Below are positions 19,801-52,055 of a stretch of 64,000 nucleotides of DNA, in pieces. The stretch spans positions 20,002,651 to 20,066,650 of the forward strand of contig CM120647.1 of NCBI GenBank assembly GCA_051362555.1, given 5' to 3'. Position 1 is the stretch's first letter. Each line of letters starts with the position of its first letter. The position numbers and the translations under genes are program-made. This DNA is from Lingula anatina. Taxonomy: Eukaryota; Animalia; Brachiopoda. The notes below the pieces were generated by a model that worked only from the letters and a program-made list of their open reading frames with translations, searched no databases and was not told the origin of the DNA.

Positions 19801-21256
19801 GAAAAATGTATTCAATAGCACATGTGATCCCGTAAAAGTTAATGCCAACACTACAATCAGTCACCTTTTATATGCTGATGACCTCGTTATTCTATCTAAA
19901 TCTGCAAAGGGCCTACAAAAAAGTCTTGACACTCTGGGGGACTACTGCAAAAAATGGAAGCTCACAGTCAATACCAACAAAACGAAAGTAATGATATTTA
20001 GTAAGTCAGGCAAAAAACCAAACATGAATTTCACAATAGACCATCAAACAATAGAAATAACACATGAATATAATTATTTAGGGATAAAATTCAAATCGAA
20101 TGGATCATTCAAAAGCGCACTTGATGATCTGAAAGGTAAAGCCATGAAGGCGGTTTTTGCAGTTAAGCAGGCTTTACAGTCCACCACCCACAATATGACC
20201 CAGACATATTTAAAACTCTTCGATATCCTTATAAAACCCATACTGATGTACGGATGCGAAATCTGGGGACCATCAATTGCATCTAAAAGCATAAAATCTC
20301 TTAAATACATGAATACTTTGCCATTCGAAGTAGTACAAAATAACTATTGCAAATACATTTTAGGTGTGAGGCGCAATGCCAGTAATATAGCAGCTAAAGC
20401 AGAACTAGGTAGATTCCCAATTACACATGACATAATGGGTCATGCTACATCCTACTGGCAAAGATTTTCTGAAATGCCAAAGCAGCGCTTGGCAAAAACA
20501 ATGTATGAATATGAAACAAAACAGGATACACAGGTAAAAAATTGGTCAAGCGAAATCAAATACATTACTCAAAATCTAACGAAAACACAGACTAATACCC
20601 CCTCGAAAGCAGAAGTAAAAAAAGCACTGGAAAGTCATTATACCCTTTTGTTTCTCAAAGAAATAGAGCGAGAAAACAGCATACTACGTACATATCGATT
20701 ATTTAAAACAAATTATGAAAGGGAAGCGTACACAACAGCACCTATACCAAAACATGAAATGCAAAATTTGGCAAAATATAGAACAGGGGCACATGACTTA
20801 GAAATCCAAAGAGGCAGATACCGAAAACCAAAATCAATACCCCCTGAAGAAAGGATCTGCAAGTTATGCTCAGATGAAGTGGAAAACGAAATACGCTTTC
20901 TTTTAAAATGCCCCTTACTCACCAAATACAGGGAGATCCTAAAACCAGATCCTACACAAACCCCAGAGGGTCAATTCAAATGCATAATGCAGTCAAACGA
21001 TTTACATGTTATAAAGAATGTGGCCCACTATATCACAATGTGTAATAAGGAAAGAAAAATATTCTCAACCAACCACCACCTAGTCAACCAAAGTAACGAG
21101 CGTATACTGCAATTGTAAAATCTGATCACAGTTATTGTATAAACAATATTGTAATTTACTATTGTAATTTTAGTTATATGATTATATTATGTATACTGAT
21201 AGGTCATAGTCATTGTAAAAAATGTACTTGAACCGCAATAAATAACAATAAAAAAT
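16838..21256 (+). mobile_element. 5'-truncated CR1/L2-group LINE
   Basis: Possible ORF1 tail (16844-17137), APE-RT ORF2 and an A-rich tail with AATAAA. The flanks rejoin to match the uninterrupted HINE copy near 11000-11060; possible TSD TAAC. Confidence 0.9.
17620..21118 (+). pseudogene. LINE ORF2 (APE endonuclease + RT + C-terminal Cys motif), disrupted
   Basis: NVHGL, LVETW, GDFN, VVDY, SDHC; NYRGI, QAGFR, FIDLKKAFDSV, GIRQGDSLSP, YADD; ICKLC...LLKCP. Stop at 17851 and frameshifts near 18465, 18855 and 19640. Confidence 0.92.
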
Positions 21257-23653
21257 TAACTCTGAAATTAATCTAGTGATACCCAAGGGTAATTTACAGA
21301 CTGACCCACTCAAAGGTCTTCAGGCCCATAAGTCACACCTTAAGAAAAGCACAAAACCATAATGCCCAAAATAGGAGACTACCAATCCTGATGCAATAAT
21401 ACATTATGTTTAACTGCACAGTCAACATCAACTTATGCACAACAGGTAACACAGACGAAAGTAAAAGCATAAGGCTCCAGGCCCATCAGAGTTCAAGTTT
21501 ATACTTAGAAAATGCCAGAATGAGAAAAATGAAAATTTCACAAAAAATGCATAAATACAATAAACATGATAATCCAATAGAGCTGGTTTTCTCATGAGCT
21601 GAAGGCCAATCCTAAAAATCGTACTTGTAAGTTTAAAATTATAATAAGTAGCACAGTTTTCTTTTCATAATGTTTGCAGTAGCAGTGCAAAAAGATTTTT
21701 GTCAATTTTGATGTAACATTACATAATAAATTAGAGAATAATTATCTCCAATTTTTGTTTATTGACTATAAATAGGATGGACATGTAGAAAATATGATTA
21801 CCATTTGGCTTCATGTCCATGGGAGCTCCGAGTCCCACAATGAATATGCCAACAAGATAATGAATATTACACTAAAATGTATAACTTCCAGAAAAAGAAG
21901 CAAATTAGACTACTTTTCTAACTCAGGCTGCATTTTAGTCCTGTGTTTCTTTTTTGAAAGTTTGACAGTCATAAGTAACACGGTTTTCCCATAATGGTCA
22001 TCAAGGCAGCAGCACCAAAAATTGTGTTTTCTTCTATTTTGATGCAACATTACATAATGCTTAACAGCATACTGACCATCGATTTTTAATAATAAAATAT
22101 AAGTGTCATGGATTTTCACAAAATGTGACTAGCATGGTCTTCAAGCCCGTGGAGGTTCTAAGTCACACCTTGGAAATGCCAATATGTGAAAAATTAAATT
22201 TTCACAAAAGACTGTTTAATTGCCAGAAAAATTTACCAAACAGACTGCATTGCCTACTGAAGCTGTATTTTAGTCCCATGTTTCTTTCCTGTAAGTTTGA
22301 GAACAGTAAGTGACATGATTTTCCTTAAATGGTCATCATGGGAGCACTGCCCAAAATAGGGGTTTCTTCAAATTTTGATGCAATATTACATAATGTTTTA
22401 CAGCATGATGACCATCAATTTTTAATTATAAAATATTAGTATCATGGTTATTCAGAAAATGTAACTAGCAAAAGTCTTCAGGCCCATGGAACTTCAAAGT
22501 CACATATTGAAAATGCCAAAATGTAAACAAGACAGCACTGTTCTGAAATGGGTTTATTTCCATTTTTAACACTTTTTTAACATAAAACAAAATAAACAGT
22601 TCACTGCCATTTTTATATGACCAATGAAGAAAATTGATGAGATGGGAAAAGTATCAATAGAACAGTGTTAAATGTCCAACTTCCTCCATTCTGAGATTCT
22701 GAACATAGTGGATGAATGCATCTGACAAACTGCAATGATACGAGTTTATTTCCATTTTTGACACTTTATTACACAATACATGATAACAAGTTTACCATCA
22801 TTTTTACAAAATCAACTAACAATGTTGTAAAGATGCAGGAAATGTCAAACAAACACTTTTCCGTATCTTATTAGTTCAATAATGAGACTGTTAACATGCC
22901 TAAGAATTGAATGTGAGGAAATGTGAAAAAACAGCATAACTTCTAAAATAATGGACTGATTATGCTGATTTTCAAACTCAACCTGCGTTTTAGTAAGATT
23001 GGCCCCTCCTGTGAGTATAATGACAATTGGCCAATCTGTTTTTCTTATATTGTGTTATCAGTGTTGCATATATACTGAAAAAAGTGAAAAAACAGCATAA
23101 ATTCCCTATAAGTGACCCGATTGTGCTGATTTTCGAACTTGACCTGCGTATTATGAATATTTATCAGTTCTGTAATTTTCAAGCCAAAAGATAAAATGGT
23201 TTTCCACTTATTGTGTTATCGGTGCTGCATATATGCTGAAAAAATAGAAAAAATAGCCTAAATTCACTAAAAATGACCCAATCACGCTGATTTTCGAACT
23301 TGACCTGCGTATTAAGTATATTCATCAGTTCTGTAAGTTTCAAGCCGAAAAGTAAAATGGTTTTCCACTTATCGTGTTATCGGTGCTGCATATATGCTGA
23401 AAAAAGTGAAAAAACAGCATAAATTCCCTATAAGTGACCCGATCATGCTGATTTTCGAACTCGACCTGCGTATTATGAATATTCATCAGTTCTGTAAGTT
23501 TCAAACAAAAAAAAAGCAGTTTTCCACTTATCGTGTTATCAGTAAAAGTGCATGGCGACGGCGACGACGGCGACGACAGCAACGACGGCGACGGCGACGA
23601 CAGACGCAGATGACGGCTATATGTACAGACACATCTGTGTCTGTACATAAAAA

Positions 23654-23952
23654 GGCTAATAACTTCATCAAAATTTAACTGATCAAGCTTATTTTCAAAC
23701 TTGATCTGTATACTAGTCAGACTAATCACTACTGTGAGTTGCAAGACAAAAGGCTGATTGGTTTTCCTTAAAATGTGTTATCAGTGTTGCATATATGCTG
23801 AATAAGGAAAAAAACAGCATAACAGTTGTAAATATAGTCCAATCAAGCCAATTTTCAAACTTGAAATGCGTATTATGAATATTCATCAGTTTCAATCCAA
23901 AAAGAAAAACATTTTTACACTGATCCTGTTTTCCGTGTTACAAAAATGCTGA

Positions 23953-23984
<32 letters not shown>

Positions 23985-26727
23985 CATCATAACTTCCCTA
24001 AAATTAGCCGGATCATGCTGAATTTCAAACTTGACCTGCATATTATAAATATTAATCAGTTCTGTAAGTTTCAAGCCAAAAAGTAAAACGGTATTTTACT
24101 TATCGTGTTATCGGTGCTACATAGATGCTGAAAAAAAATTGAAACAAGACAGCACTGTTCTGAAATGGGTTTATTACCATTTTTAAGACTTTTTAAACAT
24201 AAAACAAAATAAACAGTTTACTGCCATTTTTATATGACCAACTAAGAAAATTGATGAGATAGGAAAATACCAATAAGACAGTGTTATACGTCCAATTTCC
24301 TCCATTATGAGATTCTGAACATAGTGGATGATTGAATCTGACAAACTGCAATGATATGTGTTTATTTCCATTTTTGACACTTAATTAAACAATACACGAT
24401 AACAGGTTTACTATCATTTTTACAAAATCAACTAACAATGTTGTAAAGATGCAGGAAATGCCAAACAAACACTTTTCCGTATCTTATTAGTTAAATAATG
24501 AGACTGTTAACATGCCTAAGAATTGAATGTGAGGAAATGTGAAAAAACAGCATAACTTCTAAAATAATGGACCGATTATGCTGATTTTCCAACTCAACCT
24601 TCGTTTTAGTAAGATTGGCCACTCCTATGAGTATTATGACAATTGGCCTATCTGTTTTTCACTTATCGTATTATCAGTGTTGCATATATGCTGAAAAAAG
24701 TGAAAAAAACAGCTTGCTTAACCTCCATAAAAGTGGTCCAATCATGCTGATTTTCAAACTCGACCTGTGTGTTATGAATATTTATCAATTCTGTAAGTTT
24801 CAAGCCAAAGGGTAAAACAGCTTTTCATTTATTGTGTTATCGGTGTTGCAAAAATGCTGGAAAAAAGTGAAAAAAATAGCCTAAATTCAGTAAAAATGAC
24901 CCAATCATGCTGATTTTCAAACTTGACCTGCGTATTATGAATATTCATCAGTTCAGTAAGTTTCAAGCCAAAAGGTAAAATGGTTTTCCATTTATGGTGT
25001 TATCGGTGCTGTATATATGCTGAAAAGAGAGAAAAAAATAGCCTAAATTCACTAAAAATGACACAATCACGCTGATTTTCGAACTTGACCTGCGTATTAT
25101 AAATATTCATCAGTTCTGTAAGTTTCAAGCCAAAAGGTAAAATGGTTTTCCACTTATTGTGTTATCAGTGCTGCATATGTGCTGAAAAAAGTGAAAAAAC
25201 AGCATAAATTCCCTATAAGTGACCCGATCATGCTGATTTTCGAACTTGAACTGCATATTATGAATATTCATCAGTTCTGTAAGTTTCAAGCCAAAAGAAA
25301 AAACAGTTTTCCACTTATCGTGTTATCGGTAAAAGTGCACGGCGACGACGGCAATGACGGCGACGGCGACGACAGACGCAGATGACGGCTATATGTACAG
25401 ACACATCTGTATCTGTACATAAAAAGTGAAAAACAGCATAACTTCCCTAAAAATGACCCGATCATGCTGATTTTCGAACTTGACCTGCGTATTATGAATA
25501 TTCATCAGTTTTGTAAGTTTCAAGGGAAAAGGTAAAATGGTTTTCCACATATCGTGTTATCGGTGCTGCATATATGCTGAAACAAGACAGCACTGTTCTG
25601 CAATGGGTTTACTTCCATTTTTAAAACACTTTTTTAACATCAAACAAAATAAACAGTTTTCTACCATTTGTATATGATCAACTAAGAAAATTGATGAGAT
25701 GGGAAAAATATCAATAGAACAGTGTTAAATGTCCAATTTCCTCCATTCTGAGATAATGAATATAGTAGATGATTGAATCTGACAAACTGCAATGATATTT
25801 GTTTATTTCCATTTTGACACTTTATAACATAATACACAATAACAAGTTTACCATCGTTTTTACATAATCAACTAACAATGTTATTAAGATGCAGGAAATG
25901 TCAAACAAACACTTTTAGGTATCTTATTAGTTCAATAATGAGACTGTTAACATGCCTAACAATTGAATCTGAGGAAATAAGAAAAAACAGCATAACTTCT
26001 AAAAGAATGGCCCGATTATGCTGATTTTGGAACTCAACCTGCGTTTTAGTTAGTTTGACTACTCCTGTGAGTATAATGACAACTGGCCTGTCTGTTTTTC
26101 TTATATTGTGTTATTAGCGTTGCATATATGTTGAAAGAAGTGAAAAAACAGCATAACTTCCCTAAAAATGGCCCGATCATGCTGATTTTCGAACTTTACC
26201 TGTGTATTATGATTATTCATCAGTTCTGTAAGTTTCACGCCAAAAGGTAAAATGGTTTCCATTTATGGTGTTATCGGTGCTGCATATATGCTGAAAAAAG
26301 TGAAAAAATAGCCTAAATTCACTAAAAATGACCCAATCACGCTGATTTTCGAACTTGACCTGCGTATTATAAATATTCATCAGATCTGTAAGTTTCAAGC
26401 CAAAAGGTAAAATGATTTTCCACTTATCGTGTTATCGGTGCTGCATATATGCTGAAAAAAGTGAAAAAACAGCATAAATTCCCTATAAGTGACCCGATCA
26501 TGCTGATTTTCGAACTTGACCTGCGTATTATGAATATTCATCAGTTCTGTAAGTTTCAAGCCAAAAGGTAAAATGGTTTTCCACTTATCGTGTTATCGGT
26601 GCTGCATATATGCTGAAAAAAGTGAAAAAACAGCATAAATTCCCTATAAGTGACCCGATCATGCTGATTTTCGAACTTGACCTGCGTATTATGAATATTC
26701 ACCAGTTCTGTAAGTTTCAAGCCAAAA
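23654..26727 (-). repeat. Nested HINE fragments and 161-bp tandem arrays
   Basis: Unit GCTGAAAAAAGTGAAAAAACAGCAT...TGCATATAT recurs at 26291, 26452 and 26613; another 5' hairpin at 25393-25420. Confidence 0.85.
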
Positions 26728-29700
26728 GAAACAAGGCAGCAAAGCTGTCAAATTTTCAGATTTCAAATTTTCAAACTTTTAATCTTGCTGTATTAACATG
26801 ATATGAATAATCCCAATGTGTTTGAGGATGATAAGGCACTGTTATTCATCTATAGCATTAATGTTGGCATTGCACAATTTTTTTTTTTTTTTTTGTAAAC
26901 TTATTTGCAATATTAAACAACATTTACCTGCATAATTATCACCAATTCCTAATTATGTGACACAGTTAAGAGAGCTTAACCTATAGGACTTGAATGGGAA
27001 ATCTCAACGTGTGTTTTATGTAATCTTATTTAATGGGCACTTGAAAATCAATTAGGCAAGTAATTTTATAGCTCTGAATTTAGCTAGTGATTATCCCAAG
27101 GGACAATTACCACCATCCATAAACAGTAGCCCCATATAGCACTCCATAGAGCTGCATTGCTTCCAAAACAGAAAACAATCACACTGATTTCCAACACAAG
27201 CTACACTTCAGTCCTACGAAACTTTTCAGTAAGTTAGAATATCATAAGTAAAACGGTTTTTCCTTAATGGTCATCCCAGCAGCGATGTCCAAAAAAGTTT
27301 TTTTTTCATCTTTTATGCAATTTAACATAATGCTTAACAGCACAATGGCCATGAATTTTTAATAATAAAGAAAATGTATCATAGCTATTCAAAAGATGCG
27401 ACTAGCAATGGTATTCAAGCCAATGGAAGTTCAAAGACTAAGTCACACCTTGAAAATGTCCATATGTAAAAATTTTAATTGTAACAAAAAACTATATAAT
27501 TTCCAAGAAAGTTAACCGATATAACAGGTTTTCCAACTGAAGCTATAATTTAGTGCTATGCTACATTTCTGTAAGTTTGAGAAGAGTAAGTGACTTGGTT
27601 TTCCTTTAATGGTCACTATGGAGGCATCGTCTAAAATGGGGTTGTCTTCAATTTTGATGCAATATTACATAATGCTTAACAGCATAATGACCATCAATTT
27701 TTAATAATAAAATAAAAGTATCATGGATATTCAGAAAATTTGATATGGAAAGGTCTTCAGGGCCATGGAAGTTCAGAGTCACAACTTCAAAATGCCAAAA
27801 TGTACACAAGACTGAAATGAATTTCTTTCCACTTTCAACACTTTTTTTACATATATCAAAATAATCAATTTATTGTCGTTTTTAAATGATCAACTAAGAA
27901 AGTTGTTGACATAGGAAAAATATCAATAGAACAATTTTAAATGTCCAATTTGTTTCATTCTGAGATTCTGAACATGGTGAATGATTGAATCTGACAAACT
28001 GTAAAGATATGAGTTTATTTCCATTTTTGACACCTAATTACAAAATGCACAATAACAGGTTTACCATCATTTTTATATAATCAACTAACAATATTGTTAA
28101 GATGCAGAAAATGTCAAAAGAACACCTTTACATTACTAATTAGTTCACAAATGAGATTGTTAACATGCCTAAGAATTAAATCCGAGGAACAAAAGACTTA
28201 TATACAAAAAAAGGCACAATTTCACCAAAACTGAACCGATCAAGCTTATTTTCGAACCTCATCTGTATTTTAGTAAATCCGATCACCCCTGTGAATTTCA
28301 AGACGATTGGCCAATTGATTTTCCTTGAAATGTGTTATCGGTGTTGCAATATGCTGAAATAGTGAAAAAAACAGCATTACTTCCATAAAAATGACCCGAT
28401 CAGACTGATTTTCGAACTTGACCTGTGTATTATGAATATTCATCATTTCAGTAACTTATAAGCCAAAAAGTAAAACGATTTTTTCACTTATCGTGTTATC
28501 GGTGCTGCATTTATGCTGAAAAAAATGAAAAAATGGCATAACTTCCACAAACATAGTCCGATCATGCTGATTTTCGAACTTGACCTGCGTATTAAGAATA
28601 TTCATCAGTTCTGTAAGTTTCAAGCCAAAAGGTAAAACCGTTTTTCACTTATAGTGTTATCGGTGTTGCATTTATGCTGAAAAAAAGGAAAAAATGGCAT
28701 AACTTCCACAAATATGGCCCGATCATGCTGATTTTCGAACTTGACCTGCGTATTAAGAATATTCATCAGTTCTGTAAGTTTCAAGCCAAAAGGTAAAACG
28801 GTTTTTCACTTATCGTGTTATCGGTGTTGCATTTATGCTGAAAAAAATGAAAAAATAGCATAACTTCCACAAATATGGCCCGATCATGCTGATTTTCGAA
28901 CTTGACCTGCGTATTATGAATATTCATCAGTTTTGTAAGTTTCAAGCCAAAAAGTAAAATGGTTTTTCACTTATCGTGTTATCGGTGCTGCATATATGCT
29001 GAAAAAAGTGGAAAAAACGCATAAATTCTCTAAAAATGACCCGATCATGCTGATTTTCAAACTTGACTTGCTTATTATCAATATTTATCAGTTCTGTAAG
29101 TTTAAAGCTAAAAGGTACAATGGTTTTTCCACTTATCGTGTTGTTGGTGCTGCATATATGCTGAAAAAATTGAAATAAAAACAGCATAAATTCCCTAAAA
29201 GTGACCCGATCATGCTGATTTTTGAACTTGACCTGCGTATTAAGAATTTTCATCAGTTCTGTAAGTTTCAAGCCAAAAGGTAAAATGGTTTTCCACTTAT
29301 TGTGTTATCGGTGCTGCATATATGTAGAAAAAAGTGAAAAAACAGCATAAATTCCCTAAAAATGACCCGATCATGCTGATTTTCGAACTTGACCTGCGTA
29401 TTAAGAATTTTCATCAGTTTTGTAAGTTTCAAGCCAAAGGGTAAAATGGTTTTCCACTTATTGTGTTATCGGTGCTGCATATATGCTGAAAAAGTGAAAA
29501 AACAAGTAATTTTTTAAAAAATGGCCAGATCATGCTGATTTTCGAACTTGACCTGCATATTATGAATATTTATCAGTTCTGTAGGTTTAAAGCTACAAGG
29601 CAGCAATTGTTGATTATTATTATTGTCCTCTTTGGCCCACTTCTGACAGTTCCTGAAAATTTCAGCAAAATCGGTACATAACTTTTTGAGTTATGTTGAT

Positions 29701-31556
29701 GACAGACAAACAGGGGTGAAAATATAACCTCCTTGGCAGAGGTAAATATAATTCCAAAGAAGCTGCTATTCAAACTTTTAATCTTTGAGTTTATATATAT
29801 ATACAATCATAAGTAACACGGTTTTCCCATAATGGTCATCATGGCAGCAGCACCAAAATTGTGTTTTCTTCTATTTTGATGCAACATTACATACTGCTTA
29901 ACAGCAAAATGACCATCAATTTTTAATAATAAAATATACATGTCATGGATTTTCAGAAAATGTGACTAGTATGGGTCTTCAAGCCCGTGGAGGTTCTAAG
30001 TTGCACCTTGAAATTGCCAATAAGTGAAAAATTAAATTTTCACAAAAAACTGCCAGAGGAATTTACCAAACAGTATGCATTGCCTACTGAGGCTGTATGT
30101 TAGACCCATGTTTCTTTCTTGTAAGTTTGAGAACAGCAAGTGACATGTTTTCCCTTAAATGGTCATCATAGAAGCAGTGCCCTAAATAGGGGTTTCTTCA
30201 AATTTTGATGCAACGTTACATAATGTTTAATAGCATAATAACCATCAAATGTTATTAAAAAAATATTAGTAACATGGACATTCAGAAAACATGACAAACA
30301 AAAGTCTTCAGGCCCATGGAACTTCAAAGTCACATCTTGAAAATGCCAAAATGTAAACAAGACAGCACTGTCCTGAAATGGGTTTATTTCCATTTTTAAC
30401 ACTTTTTTAACATAAAACAAAATAAACATTTTACTGCCATTTTTATAAGACCAACTAAGAAAATTGATGAGATGGGAAAAGTATCAATAGAACAGTGTTA
30501 AATGTCCAATTTCCTCCATTCTGAGATTCTGAACATAGTGGATGATTGAATCTGACAAACTGCAATGATATGAGTTTATTTCCATTTTTGACACTTTATT
30601 ACACAATACATGATAACAAGTTTACCATGTTTTTTACATAATCAACTAACAATGTTTTAAAGATGCAGGAAATATCAAACAAACACTTTAACGCATCTAA
30701 TTAGTTCAATAATGAGACTGTTAACATGCCTAAAAATTGAATCTGAGGAAATGTGAAAAAACAGTATAACTTCTAAAATAATGGCCCGATTATGCTGATT
30801 TTCGAACTAAACCTGCGTTTTAGTAAGATTGACCACTCCTGTGAATATAATGCCAATTGGCCAATCCTTATATTGTGTTATGCTGATTTTCGAACTAAAC
30901 CTGCGTTTTAGTAAGATTGACCACTCCTGTGAATATAATGCCAATTGGCCTTTCTTATATTGTGTTATCAGTGTTGCATTTATATTGAAAAGTGAAAAAA
31001 CAGCATAAATTCCCTCAAAATGGCCCAATCATGCTGATTTTCGAACTTGACCTGCGTATAAAGAATTTTCATCAGTTCTGTAAGTTTCAAGCCAAAAGGT
31101 AAAATGGTTTTCCACTTACTGTGTTATCGGTGCTGCATATATGCTGAAAAAGTGAAAAAACAGCATAAATTCCCTAAAAATGGCCCAATCATGCCGATTT
31201 TCGAACTTGACCTGCATATTATGACTATTCATCAGTTCTGTAAGTTTCAAGTCGAAAGGTACAATGGTTTTCCACTTATCGTGTTATCGGTGCTGCATAT
31301 ATGTTGAAAAAAGTGAAAAAAAAGCATAAATTCCCTAAAAGTGACCCGATAATGCTGATTTTCGAACTTGACCTGCGTATTATGAATATTCATCAGTTCT
31401 GCAAGTTTCAAATCAAAAGGCAAAATGGTTTTCCACTTATCGTGTTATTATCGGTAAAAGTGCACGGCGACGGCGACGACGGCGACGACGGCGACGGCGA
31501 CGACAGACGCAGATGATGGCTATATGTACAGACACATCTGTGTCTGTACATAAAAA
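26728..31556 (-). mobile_element. Helentron/HINE-like element with 161-bp arrays
   Basis: 3' end motif at 26728, array at about 28350-29590 (28516, 28677, 28838, 28999), 5' hairpin at 31524-31551. Confidence 0.75.
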
Positions 31557-41867: not shown

Positions 41868-42773
41868 CTACCTTGGTATTGTTTGGTGGCTGCTGCCCGG
41901 CTGTGGTATTATTCCAATAGTTTTCATCCCCATAACTATCGCCTTGATGAAAGCAGTCATGGCTTCGTCTTTTTTATCAAGCATACTCAATTCTTGGCCT
42001 ATACAGTGTAGTGTTTCGGCTGTACTGCGACTTTCACCCAGCACTAGTTCCTTTATACATAGAGCTCTTTGAAAAGTACTGAGAGCCTCTGCGTGATTTC
42101 CATGTGCAGATAGGGCACAAGCTAATTTATGTAATCTGGTTGCTGTAAACTCATGGTATTCCCCAACTTTTTCTTAATACAAAGACACCAGCATCCTAAG
42201 GATATCCACAGTATATATAACCATTGCATGAATCTTCGCAAGCATTTCACAACATATGACGTCGAGCGTTGGTGCTGTACTTAGACATTCATTTGAAACC
42301 TGCCCCTGTTTGCCTCTGACGGCCTCTACAAGTTTTCCCTGTATAAAAAGAGCAAGTAGCACCATTTGTTTTGTGGTTGATATCCATTCGCGCCCTCCTC
42401 CCGGTATCTTTTTCTTCATAGCAAGACATCTTTTAAATATTTCCAGAGCACCGTCCACATTCCCAATCAGGAACATTTCATTGTAGTGTATCGGTTGTTC
42501 TGAGACTTTCACCCAGCACTTCCTTCTTTCAACTGTAAGTAGAGTTCTCTGAAAAGTACATAGGGCCTCTACGTGGTTTCCCAGAACAGAAAGGGCACAT
42601 GTCATATCATTCATTGTGGTTGCTGTCTGCTCGTCCATTTCTCCCAGTATCTTCTCACTCATGGCTAGAGCTCTCCTCAGTACATCCACTGCACCGTCTG
42701 CATTGCCTAGATATATCATTTCCTGAACCACGCTGTGTAATGTCGAGGCTGTACTTTGGCTTTCCCCCATCAC
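41868..42773 (-). pseudogene. Decayed TPR-repeat tail of gene B
   Basis: About 3.5 more diverged units, out of frame after a 1-nt loss near 42779, with further indels. The last segment reads GEYHEFTATRLHKLACALSAHGNHAEALSTFQRAL...IPR*. Confidence 0.85.
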
Positions 42774-45700
42774 TTGTTCTGTATACGTAAAGACCTTTGA
42801 AATGTACTCAGAACATCAGCATGGTTTCCCTGTGCAGCTATGGCACGAACTAATTCATGTATTGTATCTGCTGTCTGTTCGTGATATTCTCCCAGTAACA
42901 TTTTCTCTATGACCAGAGCTCTCTTGAGGACATCCACGGCACCGTCTGCATTGCCCATCTCCAACATTTTTTTGCCTATGTTGTGCATCGTTATCGCTGT
43001 ACTTTCACTTTCACCCAGCACTTGTTCCTCTATACGTAGAGCTCTTTGGTATGTACTGAGGGCTTTTGCGTGGTTTCCCTGTGCAGATATAGCTTCAGCT
43101 AATTCATATACTGTGTCTGCTGTGCTTTTGTGATATTCTCCCAGTATCTTCTCCTTCATATCCAAAGCTCTCTTGAGGACGTCCACAGCACCGTCTGCAT
43201 TGCCCATCTCCATCATTTCCTGACCTATGCTGTGCAGTGTACTGGCTGTACTTTCACTTTCACCCAGCACTTGGTCCTCAATACGTAGAGCTCTTTGGTA
43301 TGTACTGAGGGCTTCTGCGTGGTTTCCCTGTGCAGATATGGCTTCAGCTAATTCATATACTGTGGCTGCTGTGCTTTTGTGATATTCTCCCAGTATCTTC
43401 TCCTTCATATCCAAAGCTCTCTTGAGGACGTCCACAGCACCGTCTGCATTGCCCATCTCCACCATTTCCTGACCTATGCTGTGCAGTGTACTGGCTGTAC
43501 TTTCACTTTCACCCAGCACTTGTTCCTCTATACGTAGAGCTCTTTGGTATGTACCGAGGGCTTCTGCGTGGTTTCCCTGTGCAGATATGGCTTCAGCTAA
43601 TTTATATATTGTGGCTGATGTGCTTTTGTGATATTCTCCCAGTATCTTCTCCTTCATAACCAGAGCTCTCCTGAGGACATCTACGGCACCGTCTGCATTG
43701 CCCATCTCCAACATTTCTTTGCCTATGCTGTGCATCGTAATCGCTGTACTTTCACTTTCACCCAGCACTTGTTCCTTTATATGCAGAGCTCTTTGGTATG
43801 TACTGAGGGCCTCTGCGTGGTTTCCCTGCGCAGATATGGCTTCAGCTAATTCATATATAGTGGCTGCTGTGCTTTTGTGATATTCTCCCAGTATCTTCTC
43901 CTTCATATCCAAAGCTCTCTTGAGGACGTCCACAGCACCGTCTGCATTGCCCATCTCCATCATTTCCTGACCTATGCTGTGCAGTGTACTGGCTGTACTT
44001 TCACTTTCACCCAGCACTTGTTCCTCTATACGTAGAGCTCTTTGGTATGTACCGAGGGCTTCTGCGTGGTTTCCCTGTGCAGATATGGCTTCAGCTAATT
44101 TATATATTGTGGCTGATGTGCTTTTGTGATATTCTCCCAGTATCGTCTCCTTCATATCCAGAGCTCTCCTGAGGACATCCGCAGCACCATCTGCATTGCC
44201 CATCTCTAACATTTTTTTGCCTATGTTGTGCATCGTAATCATTGTACTTTCGCTTTCACCCAGCACTTGTTCCTCTATACGTAGAGCTCTTTGGTATGTA
44301 CTGAGGGCTTCTGCGTGGTTTCCCTGTGCAGATATGGCACGAGCTAATTCATGTATTGTGACTGCTGTCTGTTCGTGATATTCTCCCAGTATCTTCTCCT
44401 TCATATCCAAAGCTCTCTTGAGGACATCCACGGCACCGTCTGCATTGCCCATCTCCATCATTTCCTGACCTATGCTGTGCAGTGTACTGGCTGTACTTTC
44501 ACTTTCACCCAGCACTTGTTCCTCTATATGTAGAGCTCTTTGGTATATACTGAGGGCTTCTGCGTGGTTTCCCTGTGCAGATTTGGCTTCAGCTATTTTT
44601 TTTATTGTGGCTGATGTGGTTTTGCGATATTCCCCTAGTATCTTCTCCTTCATATCCAGAGCTCTCCTGAGGACGTCCACAGCACCGTCTGCATTGCCCA
44701 TCTCCAACATTTTTTTGCCTATGTTGTGCATCGTAATAGCTGTACTTTCACTTTCACCCAGCACTTGTTCCTCTATACGTAGAGCTCTTTGGTATGTACT
44801 GAGGGCTTTTGCGTGGTTTCCCTGTGCAGATATGGCTTCAGCTAATTCATATACTGTGGCTGCTGTGCTTTTGTGATATTCTCCCAGTATCTTCTCCTTC
44901 ATATCCAAAGCTCTCATGAGGACGTCCACAGCACCGTCTGCATTGCCCATCTCCATCATTTCCTGACCTATGCTGTGCAGTGTACTGGCTGTACTTTCTT
45001 TTTCACCCAGCACTTGTTCCTCTATACGTAGAGCTCTTTGGTATGTACTGAGGGCTTCTGCGTGGTTTCCCTGTGCAGATATGGCTTCAGCTAATTCATA
45101 TATTGTGGCTGCTGTGCTTTTGTGATATTCTCCCAGTATCTTCTCCTTCATATCCAAAGCTCTCTTGAAGGCGTCCACAGCACCGTCTGCATTGTCCATC
45201 TTTAAATTTTTTTTGCCTATGTTGTGCATCGTAATCGCTGTACTTTCACTTTCACCCAGTACTCGTTCCTCTATACGTAGAGCTCTTTGGTATGTACTGA
45301 GGGCTTCTGCGTGGTTTCCCTGTGCAGATATGGCTTCAGCTAATTCATATATTGCGGCTGCTGTGTTTTTGTGATATTCTCCCAGTATCTTCTCTTTCAT
45401 AAGTAGAGCTCTCCTGAGGACGTCCACGGCACTGTCTGCATTGCCCATCTCTAAAATTTTTTTGCCTATGTTGTACATCGTAATCGCTGTACTTTCACTT
45501 TCACCCACCACTTGTTCCCATATACAAAGAGCTCTTTGGTATGTACTGAGGGCCTCTGCGTGGTTTCCCTGTGCAGATATGGCTTCAGCTAATTTATATA
45601 TTGTGGCTGCTGTACTTTTGTGATATTCTCCCAGAATATTCTCCTTCATAACTACAGCTCTCCTGAGGACATCCACGGCACCGTCTGCATTGCCCATCTC

Positions 45701-45991
45701 TAACATTTTTTTGCCTATGCTGTGCATCGTATTCGCTGTACTTTCACTTTCACCAACCACTTGTTCCTCTATACGAAGAGCTCTTTGGTATGTACTGAGG
45801 GCTTCTGCGTGGTTTCCCTGTGCAGATATGGCACGAGCTAATTCATGTATTGTGACTGCTGTCTGTTCGTGATATTCTCCCAGTATATTCTCTTCTATAG
45901 CCAGAGCTCTCCTGAGGACGTCCACAGCACCGTCTGCATTGCCCATCTCCATCATTTCCTGACCTATGCTGTGCAGCGTACTGGCTGTACT
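42756..45991 (-). repeat. Coding tandem array, 13 x 249 bp (83 aa = two TPRs)
   Basis: Exact 249-nt period; near-invariant GNADGAVDVL and AQGNHAEALSTYQRAL blocks. Confidence 0.97.
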
Positions 45992-48072
45992 GTCACTTTC
46001 ACCCAGCACTTGTTCCTCTATACGTAGAGCCCTTTGGTATGCACTGAGGGCCTCTGCGTGGTTTCCCTGTGCAGACTTGGCACAAGCAAGCACATGTAAT
46101 GTAATTGCCGTCCGTTCATGGTATTCTCCCAGTGTCTTATCCCTCATATCTACAGCTCTTTTAAGAGCATCCATTGCATTATTTACATCACCGGATGCCA
46201 TGTTTACCATACCCAGGTTTGTGAGAATTAAAGCAGTTACCGGGTGTTCACCATAACGGTCCTCTGCTACATCAAGTGCCCGTTTATATAATGACAAAGA
46301 TTCCTCTTCCTTGTCAATGTGACACAGAGCTTCGGCCGCATCATTCAAAGCATCCATACCCACTCCGTCTTCTTTACCATCTAACACAGGGCTTGCATTC
46401 AGCATGTCATGCAAAGTGGACATAACTCCTCCTTCGTCTCCTTGTCTGGCTTTTATTGCTGCAATTCCAGCCTGTGCGAGGTATTTCAGACTAAAATCGT
46501 TATGAACAGTAGCCTTGTCCAAACAGTTGTTCAGTAAATGGAGGAAGACTGCATTATTGCCTTCTAATGTGTTAAGCTGCCATGCTAAATAATAACAGCA
46601 TTTACAATAATCCTTGTAATTACATCCCACTTCTTGCGCCTCATACATGGCTACTGCAATAGGCAGATTCTCACAAGATGCTAACGAATCATCAAGTTCG
46701 CCCTGTAAATAGCCTATATTATAATACAAGAATGCCAGCTCAGAAGGATCACTTTGTTCAACGTGTTTTTCAATGGTTTCTAGTACTAGTTTGAAACAGT
46801 TAAGGGAATCAATGAACCTGCCAGTTTGCCGAAGGCTGAAAGCCAATTTTTTCATTATGTTGTATGTGGCTTTCATTGATTCTGATTGCATTGACTCAAA
46901 AATACCAATACACGCCAGAAGATTATCCTTGTGTCTTTCAAATATTGTGGATGCATCGCGACCATGATCTATTTCAGCAAAAGCGTACATCTTATAGATA
47001 GTTTGCTCCATAAATCCTATATACATCTCCTTGAAACGATCTCCATATTTGTGTGAAATCTGCTCGTGTGCAAATGCCTGTATAACACCATGCATGGTAT
47101 ACTTCTCACTTACTGCATCATACCCCAGAAACGAAGCATCACAGAGGGTTTGTAGACATGTGAGGCAATCCCACATGGTAAGACCACTTCGGTTCTTATT
47201 GATGAGATCAAATGCATCATCAACATTAAAGCTTGAAGGGAAAAGAGAAAGTATTTGGATTGTCTCTTGAATGTCCAGGTCCAACTGTTTAAAAGTCAGA
47301 TTAATACACGCTGTGGGGTTTAGGCACTGGGGGGTTAAGTGTGAAAGATTTAAGCCAAATACTGTTTTTTTAGTCAGCTCCGCGATTATATCTATTGCCT
47401 TGTGACCTTGGCGTAATAAGTAGCCGAGAATATGAAGCAGCAAAGCGACAAAGCCACATTTTGCAGCCAGCTGATTGCCATCTTCACGACTCAGATGTTG
47501 TGAAAATGACTGCAACACGTCGCATGATTCATCCTCTGTTAGAGAACCAAGATTGTGAATAGGTGCTTCTTCATTGGGTAACTGAATCGTATGCCGGGTT
47601 GTGCATAAAATGTAGGTTTTGTTACAGCAGGAAATCAAACGCTGTAGCATGGAATAGAAATGTTTCTGTGTACTTTCCCCAAGAGCGCTTTCACAGTTGT
47701 CTAAAATAATAAGCATTTTTTGGCCATACGACGATATGTCTTGGCAAGCTTTTGTTATAAGACGATCAATGTTGGATTTGCCACTGCTTAATCCTGCTGA
47801 AGACTCTAAAGCATGAAGAAGGGACAAGGGAATATCGTCAGCGAATGAAACATTCTTCATGTCAGCCATGACTGAACGTATTCCCCATTTTGACACGAAG
47901 GTGTGACCTATTACGGTCGCCAGGGCGGTCTTACCTTGTCCCCCAAAGGCTTTAATTATAGCAAGACGACGCCCATCAGTGAAAAAAATCTTGGTTATTT
48001 TTTGGATATCTCCATCGCGTCCGACAAAGCACTTCGGTTGTTGTGGAAGACAACATGTCTCAAGAATAGAAC
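42770..48072 (-). CDS. NLR-like gene B coding exon 2: NB-ARC/STAND NTPase, divergent TPRs and 26 conserved TPRs
   Basis: AFGGQGKT, LIILDNCE, ILCTTR, CGFVALLL, MHGVIQ. Acceptor TTTACAG at 48073 gives a phase-1 in-frame join. Spliced CDS is 316+5303 = 5619 nt (1872 aa). Confidence 0.93.
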
Positions 48073-48326
48073 CTGTAAATATAATGCAACCGGTTGTTGA
48101 ATTAATATAAAGCATTGACAATACAATTAGATGGAGCTATCTGCCTAGTTTAAAATTACATGACTGTCTAGACACAGGAAACTTAGATTAAAAAGTTGAC
48201 GTTGCTGCTGAAGAAAAAAACAGAAATGCAACTATTATCTTGATGACTAAAGATCTTCAGTCCAACGCAATTTGTAGAGGTAACGTTACGTTAACTCCAA
48301 TGTAATGTGTAAAAACAACCATTTAC

Positions 48327-48642
48327 TTATTCCCCTTTGTTTGTCTTCCTCTTTCACTACAGTGTCTACAAGTCCAGTCCTGAGCCAGGAGTAATGTTCC
48401 TCGAGACACGAGACAAAATTATCAAATTTCTGGTTGTCCCCATTAAGCAGAAGATTCAACAACTTTTGGTTTTGTTTCAAGTGCGTTGCTTCATTACGTA
48501 TGTCTTCGCATTGTCTTGGAGTTATCACGTGAGCTGTGATCAGTTTTTTTGATATTATCTTAACATCAAGGTCATCGCATATAGCTTCCCAGTTTTTCTG
48601 TATCTTAATCTGGTTCTCTAGTGTTACTGGACAGGAAGCCAT
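48327..48642 (-). CDS. NLR-like gene B coding exon 1: CARD domain
   Basis: GCCATGG start; MASCPVTLENQIKIQKNWEAICDDLD...NFVSCLEEHYSWL; 316 nt with a phase-1 donor A|GTAAAT at the same position as in gene A. Confidence 0.9.
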
Positions 48643-49246: not shown

Positions 49247-51283
49247 AAACAAGGCAGCAAAGCTGTCAAATGTACAGACAAAAAAACAGAAAATAAAGAT
49301 GCAAATAAGTGAAAAATTAAATTTTCACAAAAAACTGTTAAATTGCCAGAAAAATTTACCAAACAAATTTACCAAACAAAATTTACCAATTTGCCTATTG
49401 AAGCTGTATGTTAGACCCATGTTTCTTTCCTGTTAGTTTGAGAACAGTAAGTGACATGATTTCCCTTAAATGGTCAACATAGGAGCAGTGCCCAAAATAG
49501 GGGTTTCTTCAAATTTTGATGCAACATTACATAATGTTGAACAGCATGATGACAATCAAATGTTATTAATAAAATATTAGTAACATGGACATTCAGAAAA
49601 TGTGACAAGCAAAAGTCTTCAGGATCATGGAACTTTAAAGTCACACCTTGTAAATGCCAATATGTGAAAAATTAAATTTTCACAAAAAACTGTTTAACTG
49701 CCAAAAAAAAAAGAAAAAAAATACCGAACAGACTGCATTGCCTACTGAAGCTGTATTTTAGTCCCAGGTTTCTTTCCTGTAAGTTTGAGAACAGTAAGTG
49801 ACATGATTTTCCTTAAATGGTCATCATGGAAGCAGTGCCCAAAAAAGGGGTTTCTTCAAATTTTGATGCAATATTACATAATGTTTAACAGCTTAATGAC
49901 CATCAATTTTTAATTATAAAATATTTGTATCACAGATATTCAGAAAATGTGACTAGCAAAGGTCTTCAGGCCCATGGAACTTCAAAGTCACACCTTGAAA
50001 ATGCCAAAATGTAAACAAGACAGCACTGTTCTGAAATGGGTTTCTTTCCATGTTTAACACTTTTTTAACATAAAACAAAATAAACATTTTACTGCCATTT
50101 TTATATGACCAACTAAGAAAATAGATGAGATGGGAAAACTATCAATAGAACAGTGTTAAATGTCCAATTTCCTCCATTCTGAGATTCTGAACATAGTGGA
50201 TGATTGAATCTGACAAACTGCAATGATATGAGTTTATTTCCATTTTTGACACTTTATTACACAATACATGATAACAAGTTTACCATGTTTTTTACATAAT
50301 CAACTAACAATGTTGTAAAGATGCAGGAAATATCAAACAAACACTTTTAGGCATCTTATTAGTTAAAAAATGAGACTGTTAACATGCCTAATAATTGAAT
50401 CTGAAGACATGTGAAAAAACAGAATAACTTCTAAAATAATGGCCCGATTATGCTGATTTTCGAACTCATCCTGCGTTTTAGTAAGATTGACCACTCCTGT
50501 GAGTATAATTACAATTGGCCAATCCGTTTTTCTTATATTGTGTTATAAGTGTTCCATTTATATTGAAAATAGTGAAAAAACAGCATAAATTCCCTAAAAA
50601 TGGCCAAATCATGCTGATTTTCGAACTTGACCTGCGTATTATAAATATTCATCAGTTCTGTAAGTTTCAAGTCAAAAGGTAAAATGGTTTTATACTTATC
50701 GTGTTATAGGTGCTGCATATATGCTGAAAAAAGTGAAAAAACAGCATAAATTCCCTAAAAGTGACCCAATCATGCTGATTTTCGAACTCGACCTGCGTAT
50801 TATGAATATTCATCAGTTCTGTAAGTTTCAAGTCAAAAGGTAAAATGGTTTTCCACTTATCGTGTTATCGGTGCTGCATATATGCTGAAAAAAGTGAAAA
50901 AACAGCATAAATTCCATAAAAATGGCCCAATCATGCTGATTTTCGAACTTGACCTGCGTATTATGAATATTCATCAGTTCTGTAAGTTTCAAGTCAAAAG
51001 GTAAAATGGTTTTCCACTTATCGTGTTATCGGTGCTGCATATATGCTGAAAAAAGTGAAAAAACAGCATAAATTCCCTAAAAGTGACCCGATCATGCTGA
51101 TTTTCGAACTTGACCTGCGTATTATGAATATTCATCAGTTCTGCAAGTTTCAAGTCAAAAGGTAAAATGGTTTTCCACTTATCGTGTTATCGGTAAAAGT
51201 GCACGGCGACGACGGCGACGACGGCGACGACAGACGCAGGTGATGGCTATATGTACAGACACATCTGTGTCTGTACATAAAAA
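49247..51283 (-). mobile_element. Complete Helentron/HINE-like element just upstream of the gene B CARD exon
   Basis: 3' end motif at 49247, 161-bp units (50724, 50885, 51046), 5' hairpin at 51251-51278. Confidence 0.82.
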
Positions 51284-51411
51284 GCAATCGTGACCTCTGC
51301 CTAATTCATTTGTACCTGGTAGTCTCTCTGTTGTGAGGTGCTTGTAGTCATAGACAGTTAGAAACCAATTTTTTCTCCTCCCCAACTTGCCTCTCTGGGA
51401 CTCGATTAACC

Positions 51412-52055
51412 TGTCAACTAACTGCGCAGTTTTGCGTTCTTGCACTGAAAAACTACCAGGTAAATAAAGGCTTTAATCATCCACCGACTCCATGGTATCA
51501 CGGCAAAGACGTTTCAATAAGCTAAACCTATTTATATTACCCTGACAAAAATCATAAAAGGGTTTACACTAAGCGGGGTTCTAGTGCGTTGCAAAAGCAG
51601 CATTTCTTCATAAAGACCAACAAAAGGGCCGGTTATTTACTCTTCCATTCATTTAGCAGTTGACGCGTATATCATAATGCAATAATGTATGCCCATAATC
51701 CCCTGTCAAAATCCTCTGGCAACCAAGACAGTTAATTGGCATACAGGTACATACAAATGCATGCATATTTGAAACGTGTATAAACGGTGATGCACCATTT
51801 CGCTGTTGACTAACCCACGACTTTCGTGTCAACTAACCGCGCAGTTTTGCCTCCTTGCACTGAAAAACTGCCAGGTAAAGAAAGGCTTAAATCAACCAGT
51901 GACTCCATGGTTTTAAGGCAAAGGTGTGTGAATAAGCTAACCCTATTTACATTACCCTGGCAAAACACATACAAAACATGTGCCTTACACTAAGAGGGGT
52001 ACCTGTGCGTTACGAAAACAGTATTTCTTTATAAAGACCAACAAAAGGACCGGTT
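51412..52055. repeat. Imperfect direct repeat, about 225 bp x2
   Basis: TGTCAACTAACYGCGCAGTTTTGC...AAAGACCAACAAAAGG starts at 51412 and 51827. Confidence 0.8.

What the first reader, a model, noticed from the sequence alone, without database searches (positions are those of the whole stretch)
42756..48642. Animal CARD-NB-ARC-TPR receptor with a mosaic, highly conserved TPR array: candidate recombination-diversified immune sensor
Seen: a CARD exon spliced to one 5.3-kb exon with 13 x 249-bp units. Scaffold residues are nearly invariant, while variation comes in interchangeable blocks: STASTLHSIGQE vs STAITMHNIGKK in TPR1, and EQTAVTIHELARA vs KSTAATIYELAEA vs KSTSATIYKLAEA in TPR2, in different combinations. 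Known: TPR helix A lines the ligand-binding groove, and fungal NLRs (Podospora HNWD/het-e, NB-ARC-TPR) change specificity by shuffling highly conserved repeats. Inference: an Apaf-1-like, CARD-signalling sensor whose specificity is rewritten by unequal crossover or conversion. The architecture itself is reported in some invertebrates, so novelty would lie in the diversification mechanism.
Basis: partly seen in the sequence, partly recalled or inferred. Interest (0 to 1): 0.9.

Follow-up and report, generated by a model that had tools for sequence, protein, structure and literature searches.

The report
Brachiopod sensor gene with shuffled repeats
This gene, likely from a lamp shell (brachiopod), encodes a predicted cell-death-signalling immune sensor whose 13 near-identical binding repeats have been mixed by DNA exchange within the gene and probably with a neighbouring gene, a habit well known from fungal sensors and only briefly noted in animals.

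Summary
This is an intact minus-strand gene of 1,872 aa: CARD, a divergent Apaf-1/plant-NLR-type ATPase, then 13 TPR doublets of 249 bp (82% alike in protein) and a decayed repeat tail. Its closest relatives are Lingula anatina proteins whose repeats are only 39-50% alike, so the expansion is recent. The units are true mosaics (PHI p<1e-4; 0 of 300 recombination-free simulations reach it). A paralog 40 kb away, 55% identical in its ATPase, shares a 96%-identical repeat patch, which points to exchange between genes. Variation is enriched at ligand-groove positions (p=0.002), and the same bias appears in 3 of 4 related arrays tested. Positive selection is not shown: groove dN/dS is 1.0-1.25 with an interval spanning 1, and site models are not significant. 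Polymorphism of unit order or number between individuals could not be tested. Expression has weak support, and no ligand or caspase partner is known. Best reading: an animal member of the fungal-type 'high internal conservation' NLR class, which a 2026 paper already says occurs in animals. It is a good test case rather than a new kind of system.

The parts
51316..51390 (-). Likely 5' UTR exon (3' end at 51316, donor GT 51315-51314; its 5' end is not determined, 51390 is a placeholder)
   Evidence: A contig of run X3 leaves the window exactly at the CARD-exon acceptor and continues in sequence matching 51320-51349 at 23 of 30 letters (count by eye). That contig comes from a paralog or a divergent allele.
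48327..48642 (-). Coding exon 1: CARD (aa 1-105)
   Evidence: Pfam PF00619 38.4 bits, cut-off 23.9; ATG and donor located
48073..48326 (-). 254-nt phase-1 GT-AG intron
   Evidence: Restores one open frame colinear with Lingula P0001-P0003
46990..48072 (-). Divergent STAND AP-ATPase (NB-ARC-like) with helical and winged-helix domains; lower bound approximate
   Evidence: Profile matches ZAR1, NRC1 and Apaf-1 along the domain, E 0.012-0.026; top fold hits Apaf-1 and plant NLRs, E about 7e-7 to 1e-6, from a model of pLDDT 63; Walker A Lys, Walker B Asp, sensor-1 Thr-Arg and the MHD-like His kept, GxP Pro replaced by Ala
46121..46989 (-). Helical linker with diverged TPRs; upper bound approximate
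   Evidence: Pfam TPR_12 E=5e-15; colinear with Lingula P0004
42884..46120 (-). Array of 13 mosaic 249-bp units, each a 41-aa plus a 42-aa kinesin-light-chain-type TPR
   Evidence: three-unit model pLDDT 92 with best folds KLC1/KLC2 TPR, TM 0.8-0.87
42770..42883 (-). Last coding TPR; a 1-base loss near 42780 brings the stop
41900..42769 (-). Decayed tail of about 3.5 older doublets with several indels and a stop; it ends in the same C-terminal motif as Lingula P0004
1..2645 (-). Paralog A: CARD exon 2645-2333, intron, ATPase exon from about 1933, frameshift near 680, TPRs running off the window; positions 181-32 hold a patch nearly identical to the array units
   Evidence: Pfam CARD E=3e-10, NB-ARC E=6e-4

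Best explanation
This is a likely intracellular sensor of the Apaf-1/NLR type in which one TPR doublet recently expanded to 13 copies that have been mixed by recombination, which would keep changing the predicted ligand-binding groove. Shown: the architecture, the recent expansion, the mosaic units and the excess of variation at groove positions. Inferred for the DNA: germline unequal crossover and gene conversion, with tracts of about 200-320 nt inside the array and at least one exchange with the paralog 40 kb away; the older C-terminal repeats were cut off by a frameshift and decayed while the new array stayed open under purifying selection. Inferred for the protein, from Apaf-1 and plant NLRs: the TPR superhelix holds the ATPase shut until a protein or peptide ligand binds the groove, nucleotide exchange drives oligomerisation, and the clustered CARDs recruit a CARD-bearing caspase or adaptor to trigger cell death or defence signalling.
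For: PHI p<1e-4 for 13 units, and p=0.004-0.014 at codon level; z=6.5 against a maximum of 3.7 in 300 recombination-free simulations with clustered rates. Near-identical tracts are shorter than the offsets that plain duplication needs, e.g. 320 of 498 nt at offset 2 and 260 of 1,743 at offset 7. Paralog A shares 46 of 59 same-residue codons exactly in the TPR stretch, against 62 of 154 in the ATPase and 23 of 52 in the CARD (Fisher p=7e-7; 74-81% against each of the 12 unit junctions). Groove positions 2, 5, 6, 9, 12, 13 (set from PMC1261162) have entropy 0.84 against 0.46 expected (p=0.002) and dN/dS 1.07-1.25 against 0.47-0.49 elsewhere (p=1e-4 to 4e-3); several changes switch charge and 12 of 13 units have a distinct groove code. 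Whole-array dN/dS of 0.54-0.58 and a 3.3-kb open frame beside a decayed tail argue for a working gene. Groove bias recurs in 3 of 4 related arrays tested, one a Lingula HEPN-NB-ARC-TPR protein. An X3 contig is joined at the predicted acceptor, and X3 and X4 contigs cover exon 2 with 0-2 differences each.
Against: No site class above dN/dS 1: M2a against M1a p=0.18, 0.30, 0.73; groove value not different from 1, p=0.39-0.88. Groove against outer-face positions is borderline: p=0.03, 0.17, 0.07, 0.30, and outer-face positions 33, 70, 74 are among the most variable. Groove positions vary in TPRs generally (PMC1261162), and young repeats generally evolve under relaxed selection (PMC5120217, abstract). 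One of 4 related arrays showed no groove bias (p=0.26). The ATPase lacks the GxP proline and the first P-loop glycine and misses the Pfam NB-ARC cut-off. None of 68 RNA reads from three runs was 99% or more alike. Only one haplotype of the array was seen.
Confidence: 0.6

Rival explanations
1. Neutral repeat turnover: the array expanded and recombines simply because it is a tandem array inside one exon; groove positions drift because they are the least constrained, and specificity is not being selected for change.
For: Groove dN/dS is about 1, not above it; relaxed selection on young repeats is general (PMC5120217 abstract); the four closest relatives manage with diverged repeats; the tail and paralog A show that such genes decay readily.
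Against: Shared multi-site blocks with charge switches persist at intermediate frequency in helix A of both TPR types; groove entropy exceeds other non-core positions (p=0.002); near-identical arrays with groove bias arose again in other members of the ATPase clade.
Confidence: 0.27
2. A non-immune role: the protein is a developmental or stress apoptosis regulator or a scaffold, and the TPR array binds a fixed host partner.
For: [quoted passage not shown]
Against: A lineage-specific multigene family with birth, decay and repeat exchange fits conflict genes better than a conserved apoptosis core; no ortholog outside Lingula was found among 1.84 billion representatives.
Confidence: 0.1
3. Assembly artefact: the array is a mis-joined or inflated repeat.
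For: No contig laid spans the array; X1 may be the source of the assembly and so is not independent.
Against: No two units are identical (1-50 differences); the frame stays open and codon-structured; in X1, summed depths of unit variants fit the window's counts in 3 of 5 rows (4.5 vs 5, 4.5 vs 5, 11.6 vs 13) and fall short in 2 (1.0 vs 7, 6.7 vs 9), with the tool's warning that depth is no copy number.
Confidence: 0.03

Closest known systems
Fungal NLRs with high internal conservation (Podospora HNWD het-d/het-e/het-r; NB-ARC-TPR genes Pa_2_10340, PaPnt1, Pa_7_3550); PMC4986451, PMC13449251
   Same: Effector + STAND ATPase + near-identical KLC-type TPRs; variation on the concave face; mosaic repeats; repeat sharing between otherwise divergent paralogs. 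The Podospora repeat structure 4Y6C is among the sequence and fold hits.
   Different: Animal host, CARD effector, a 41+42-aa doublet as the unit. Repeat-number polymorphism and positive selection are shown in Podospora and not here.
Apaf-1 / CED-4 / Dark apoptosome proteins
   Same: N-terminal CARD and AP-ATPase fold; top fold hits.
   Different: TPR instead of WD40 sensor; about 15% identity; multigene and lineage-specific; GxP proline lost.
Invertebrate death-fold-NB-ARC-TPR proteins (placozoans, Hydra: PMC6321704 passages; Lingula RefSeq LOC106167851, LOC106167867, LOC106165459, LOC106159931, LOC106162306)
   Same: Same architecture; the Lingula proteins share the ATPase clade (tree support 0.99-1.0), and the first four share the a/b doublet.
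   Different: Their doublets are only 39-50% alike on average and number 4-8, against 82% and 13 here.
Ectocarpus NB-ARC-TPR and ROCO genes (PMC3341825, abstract and outline seen)
   Same: NB-ARC-TPR candidates whose repeats are shuffled and under diversifying selection.
   Different: There each repeat is its own exon; here the whole array lies in one exon, so exchange is within coding DNA.

Membership tests
STAND AP-ATPase (NB-ARC) receptors | P-loop ATPase with Walker A, Walker B and sensor-1, followed by helical and winged-helix domains | tested here: met
   Motifs kept; profile hits to ZAR1, NRC1, Apaf-1; fold hits; model secondary structure
STAND AP-ATPase (NB-ARC) receptors | Pfam NB-ARC score above the curated cut-off | tested here: not met
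   No NB-ARC hit for this protein; 3 of 5 family members hit weakly, best E=3.5e-4; the nearest outgroup P0023 passes
STAND AP-ATPase (NB-ARC) receptors | GxP and MHD-type motifs | tested here: inconclusive
   His kept (MHG); Pro replaced by Ala, as in 10 of 164 aligned sequences including this subfamily
STAND AP-ATPase (NB-ARC) receptors | Nucleotide-dependent oligomerisation and effector recruitment | not testable with these tools
   Needs biochemistry
NLR in the strict sense (NACHT or NB-ARC plus LRR) | C-terminal leucine-rich repeats | tested here: not met
   Repeats are TPR
Apaf-1 orthologs | WD40 sensor | tested here: not met
   No WD40 among the Pfam hits shown; TPR array instead
High-internal-conservation (HIC) NLR-like receptors | Effector-ATPase-repeat layout with repeats at least 70-85% alike over 100 aa or more | tested here: met
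   Mean 82% between units; best 100-aa window 95%. T-REKS itself was not run.
High-internal-conservation (HIC) NLR-like receptors | Recombination among repeats within the gene | tested here: met
High-internal-conservation (HIC) NLR-like receptors | Repeat exchange between paralogs | tested here: met
   one paralog, of which only three TPRs lie in the window
High-internal-conservation (HIC) NLR-like receptors | Variable sites on the concave face | tested here: met
   p=0.002 by entropy; mapped by canonical numbering from the consensus-TPR alignment, not by surface calculation on the model
High-internal-conservation (HIC) NLR-like receptors | Positive selection at those sites | tested here: inconclusive
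   dN/dS 1.0-1.25, interval 0.6-1.75; site models not significant; 13 sequences give low power
High-internal-conservation (HIC) NLR-like receptors | Repeat number or order polymorphic among individuals | not testable with these tools
   Only short contigs of other samples were available
High-internal-conservation (HIC) NLR-like receptors | Non-self recognition leading to cell death | not testable with these tools
   No functional data

The most novel reading that the evidence does not exclude
Lingulid brachiopods, and probably other sessile marine animals, run a family-wide repeat-swapping system: paralogous CARD- and HEPN-NB-ARC-TPR genes trade TPR modules so that each individual carries its own set of groove codes, under diversifying or balancing selection, giving an invertebrate a fast-renewed intracellular recognition repertoire wired to caspase death, convergent with fungal allorecognition.
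Probability: 0.3. Interest if true: 0.8.

Novelty: new member of a known kind. Interest (0 to 1): 0.5.

Why it matters
How invertebrates without adaptive immunity renew recognition specificity is an open question. Repeat shuffling in intracellular sensors is documented with population data in fungi and proposed in brown algae; for animals the papers I read give only a database-level statement that such proteins exist. This locus shows the DNA footprints in an animal: mosaic units, exchange with a paralog, a recent 13-fold expansion and a discarded old tail. It sits in one exon that a single 3.5-kb amplicon can span, so the decisive population test is cheap.

Tried and rejected
No whole genome is held for this window, so paralogs could not be counted. 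No RNA holder was listed by the run search; five other contig runs with the same species label and sizeable data held next to none of the words, which is no proof of absence. RNA reads of X5, X8, X11 (4, 2 and 62 laid) were nearly all under 95% alike and cannot be assigned to this gene. X3 and X4 have no cover over the intron, but also none over parts of the exons, so that blank is not used. A lead that identical ATPase DNA is joined to different linkers (depth 18 against 65-85 in X2) was dropped: X2 contig ends fall on GATC sites (46747, 47206, 47764, 48252, 48538) and its loose ends finish in GATC, as in a restriction-ligation library, while X1 is even at 61-78. The four single-base differences in X3/X4 (3 silent, 1 missense, depth 2.5-6) are too few and shallow for a selection test. 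The dN/dS values came from a failed optimisation and were replaced by the grid; only its entropy results are used. A bacterial origin of the ATPase was considered after (next hits bacterial, E about 1e-9) but the wider search gave Lingula, soft-coral and other relatives, and deep tree nodes had support 0.02-0.33, so no claim is made. Single-sequence PDB search of the ATPase found nothing. No complex prediction was run, since no partner is known. Earlier scan notes: none by sequence or by the first word set.
Full report
Gene and source. The minus strand carries a CARD exon (48642-48327), a 254-nt phase-1 intron and a 5,303-nt exon ending at 42770, giving 1,872 aa with one stop. The only close relatives of the N-terminal 600 residues are Lingula anatina RefSeq proteins at 41-43% identity; a fourth, P0004, is 58% identical over the winged-helix and linker region. 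RNA reads of runs with the same species label as the best DNA holder are mostly under 95% alike. The window is therefore likely from a lingulid brachiopod other than the RefSeq animal; this is inference from homology. No whole genome is held.

The ATPase. It misses the Pfam NB-ARC cut-off, but a five-sequence profile aligns along ZAR1, NRC1 and Apaf-1 (E 0.012-0.026; its best hit was archaeal Cdc6, E 4e-4, over the first 150 positions only), and a modest model (pLDDT 63) has Apaf-1 and plant NLRs as best folds. The Walker A Lys, Walker B Asp, sensor-1 Thr-Arg and MHD-type His are kept; the first P-loop Gly and the GxP Pro are Ala, which is shared within the subfamily. The profile finds 15,117 representatives at E<=0.001; of the 10 top ones looked up, 3 are Lingula, 1 soft coral, 1 bacterial, 1 JGI and 4 unnamed. 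The window genes group with Lingula proteins at support 0.99-1.0; deeper nodes are unresolved.

The array. Thirteen 249-bp units (46120-42884) each encode a 41-aa and a 42-aa TPR; a three-unit model (pLDDT 92) matches kinesin-light-chain TPRs at TM 0.8-0.87 and the Podospora near-identical repeat structure 4Y6C. Units differ at 1-50 of 249 bases and are 82% alike in protein, whereas doublets within P0001-P0004 are 39-50% alike. A 1-base loss ends the frame in unit 14; about 3.5 older doublets follow with several indels and a stop, finishing in the C-terminal motif of P0004. So one doublet expanded recently and the old end was dropped, while the new array kept its frame at dN/dS 0.54-0.58.

Recombination. 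My own PHI implementation gives 0 of 10,000 permutations at windows 25 and 50 for all 13 units; it weakens without the edge units (p=0.002-0.10 for units 1-11) and holds at codon level (p=0.004-0.014). None of 300 simulations on one tree with clustered site rates reached the observed z of 6.5, although 19 reached the overall share of incompatible pairs. Near-identical tracts are 190-320 nt at offsets of 1-7 units, always shorter than the offset, which fits conversion or repeated unequal crossover; these tests cannot tell the two apart. Paralog A (2645-1, same strand, frameshift near 680) is 55% identical in ATPase DNA and 58% in CARD, yet carries a TPR patch 96% identical over 80 nt and 91% over 150 nt; identical codons at shared residues are 46 of 59 against 62 of 154 (p=7e-7), and 74-81% against each of the 12 unit junctions. 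Synonymous identity of that size is hard to get from protein constraint alone, so exchange between genes is likely. One unit variant in X1 at about three-copy depth is absent from the window's units, which hints at more loci sharing units.

Selection. With the ligand-contact positions of Magliery and Regan (PMC1261162, passages), 8 of 12 groove positions are polymorphic against 5 of 12 outer-face and 4 of 20 core positions (outer-face and core sets are from my own knowledge of TPR geometry); entropy p=0.002. Groove dN/dS is 1.07-1.25 against 0.47-0.49 for the rest, but is not above 1, and M2a does not beat M1a. Groove against outer face gives p=0.03-0.30 over four set-ups. These are my own codon models, not PAML or HyPhy, on 13 recombining sequences. 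Among 173 related proteins held, 9 have a 100-aa window at least 70% self-identical; I tested 4 of them with ten or more regular repeats, and 3 show groove bias (p=0.0003, <0.0001, 0.012; the fourth 0.26), one being Lingula LOC106163909, HEPN-NB-ARC-TPR. The pattern thus recurs, but groove variability is also the TPR norm.

Reality and expression. X1 contigs cover the unique part without differences at even depth, and variant depths fit the window's unit counts in 3 of 5 rows; X1 may be the source. X3 and X4 contigs cover parts of exon 2 with 0-2 differences; one X3 contig leaves the window exactly at the CARD-exon acceptor into sequence 23 of 30 alike to 51320-51349, directly behind a CCAG|GT donor. 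That marks X3 as likely RNA, defines a 5' UTR exon and shows splicing of a close family member; expression of this very gene is only weakly supported. Polymorphism of the array was not testable.

Mechanism. Shown: architecture, expansion, mosaicism, groove enrichment. Inferred: germline crossover and conversion renew the groove code; ligand binding releases the ATPase, oligomers form, CARDs recruit a caspase or adaptor. I put this at 0.6, neutral turnover at 0.27, a non-immune role at 0.1, artefact at 0.03.

What is known. Dyrka 2014 (PMC4986451; passages and section 17) shows repeat-number polymorphism and positive selection on the concave face of Podospora NB-ARC-TPR repeats. Ament-Velasquez and Saupe 2026 (PMC13449251; passages and section 12) show repeat exchange between TPR NLRs and state that such NLRs also occur in animals, plants and bacteria; its supplement could not be read and may list animal or Lingula examples. 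CARD-NB-ARC-TPR is reported in placozoans (PMC6321704, passages). Ectocarpus (PMC3341825) and Persi 2016 (PMC5120217) were seen as abstract and outline; PMC8195603 and PMC12314368 as passages, with no account of this family. Eight searches listed no paper on repeat recombination in an animal NB-ARC-TPR gene, judged from titles and abstract starts; the library lacks most subscription journals, and a 2018 survey of Lingula immune genes that I recall was not seen. Verdict: new member of a known kind, interest 0.5.

Noticed in passing
window 2645-1 (-): Paralogous CARD-ATPase-TPR gene with a roughly 25-aa insertion in the ATPase and a frameshift near 680 (pseudogene or sequence error); its TPR array runs off the window.
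   Followed up: partly
window 17854-21118 (+): LINE-type retroelement with endonuclease and reverse transcriptase pieces in three frames.
   Followed up: partly
window 6156-5155 (-): 333-aa acidic open frame with an internal 24-bp repeat and no Pfam hit, just upstream of paralog A.
   Followed up: no
window 54285-53779 (-): Exon of a pentraxin/laminin-G-like lectin domain, upstream of the receptor gene on the same strand.
   Followed up: no
window 23048-31448 and 50536-51194: Dispersed arrays of a 161-bp satellite, often ending in CGACGG-type triplet runs; one lies inside the inferred first intron.
   Followed up: no
P0163 (Lingula LOC106163909), P0127, P0154, P0090: Other NB-ARC-TPR proteins of the same ATPase clade with near-identical 41- or 42-aa repeats; P0127 repeats in threes. 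Taxa of the three unnamed ENA proteins are unknown.
   Followed up: partly
P0001 C-terminus: The Lingula relative LOC106167851 ends in a region that looks by eye like a trypsin-type peptidase domain after its TPRs; not tested.
   Followed up: no
window 51412-51479 and 51827-51894: A 68-bp direct repeat at 91% identity just upstream of the inferred 5' UTR exon.
   Followed up: no
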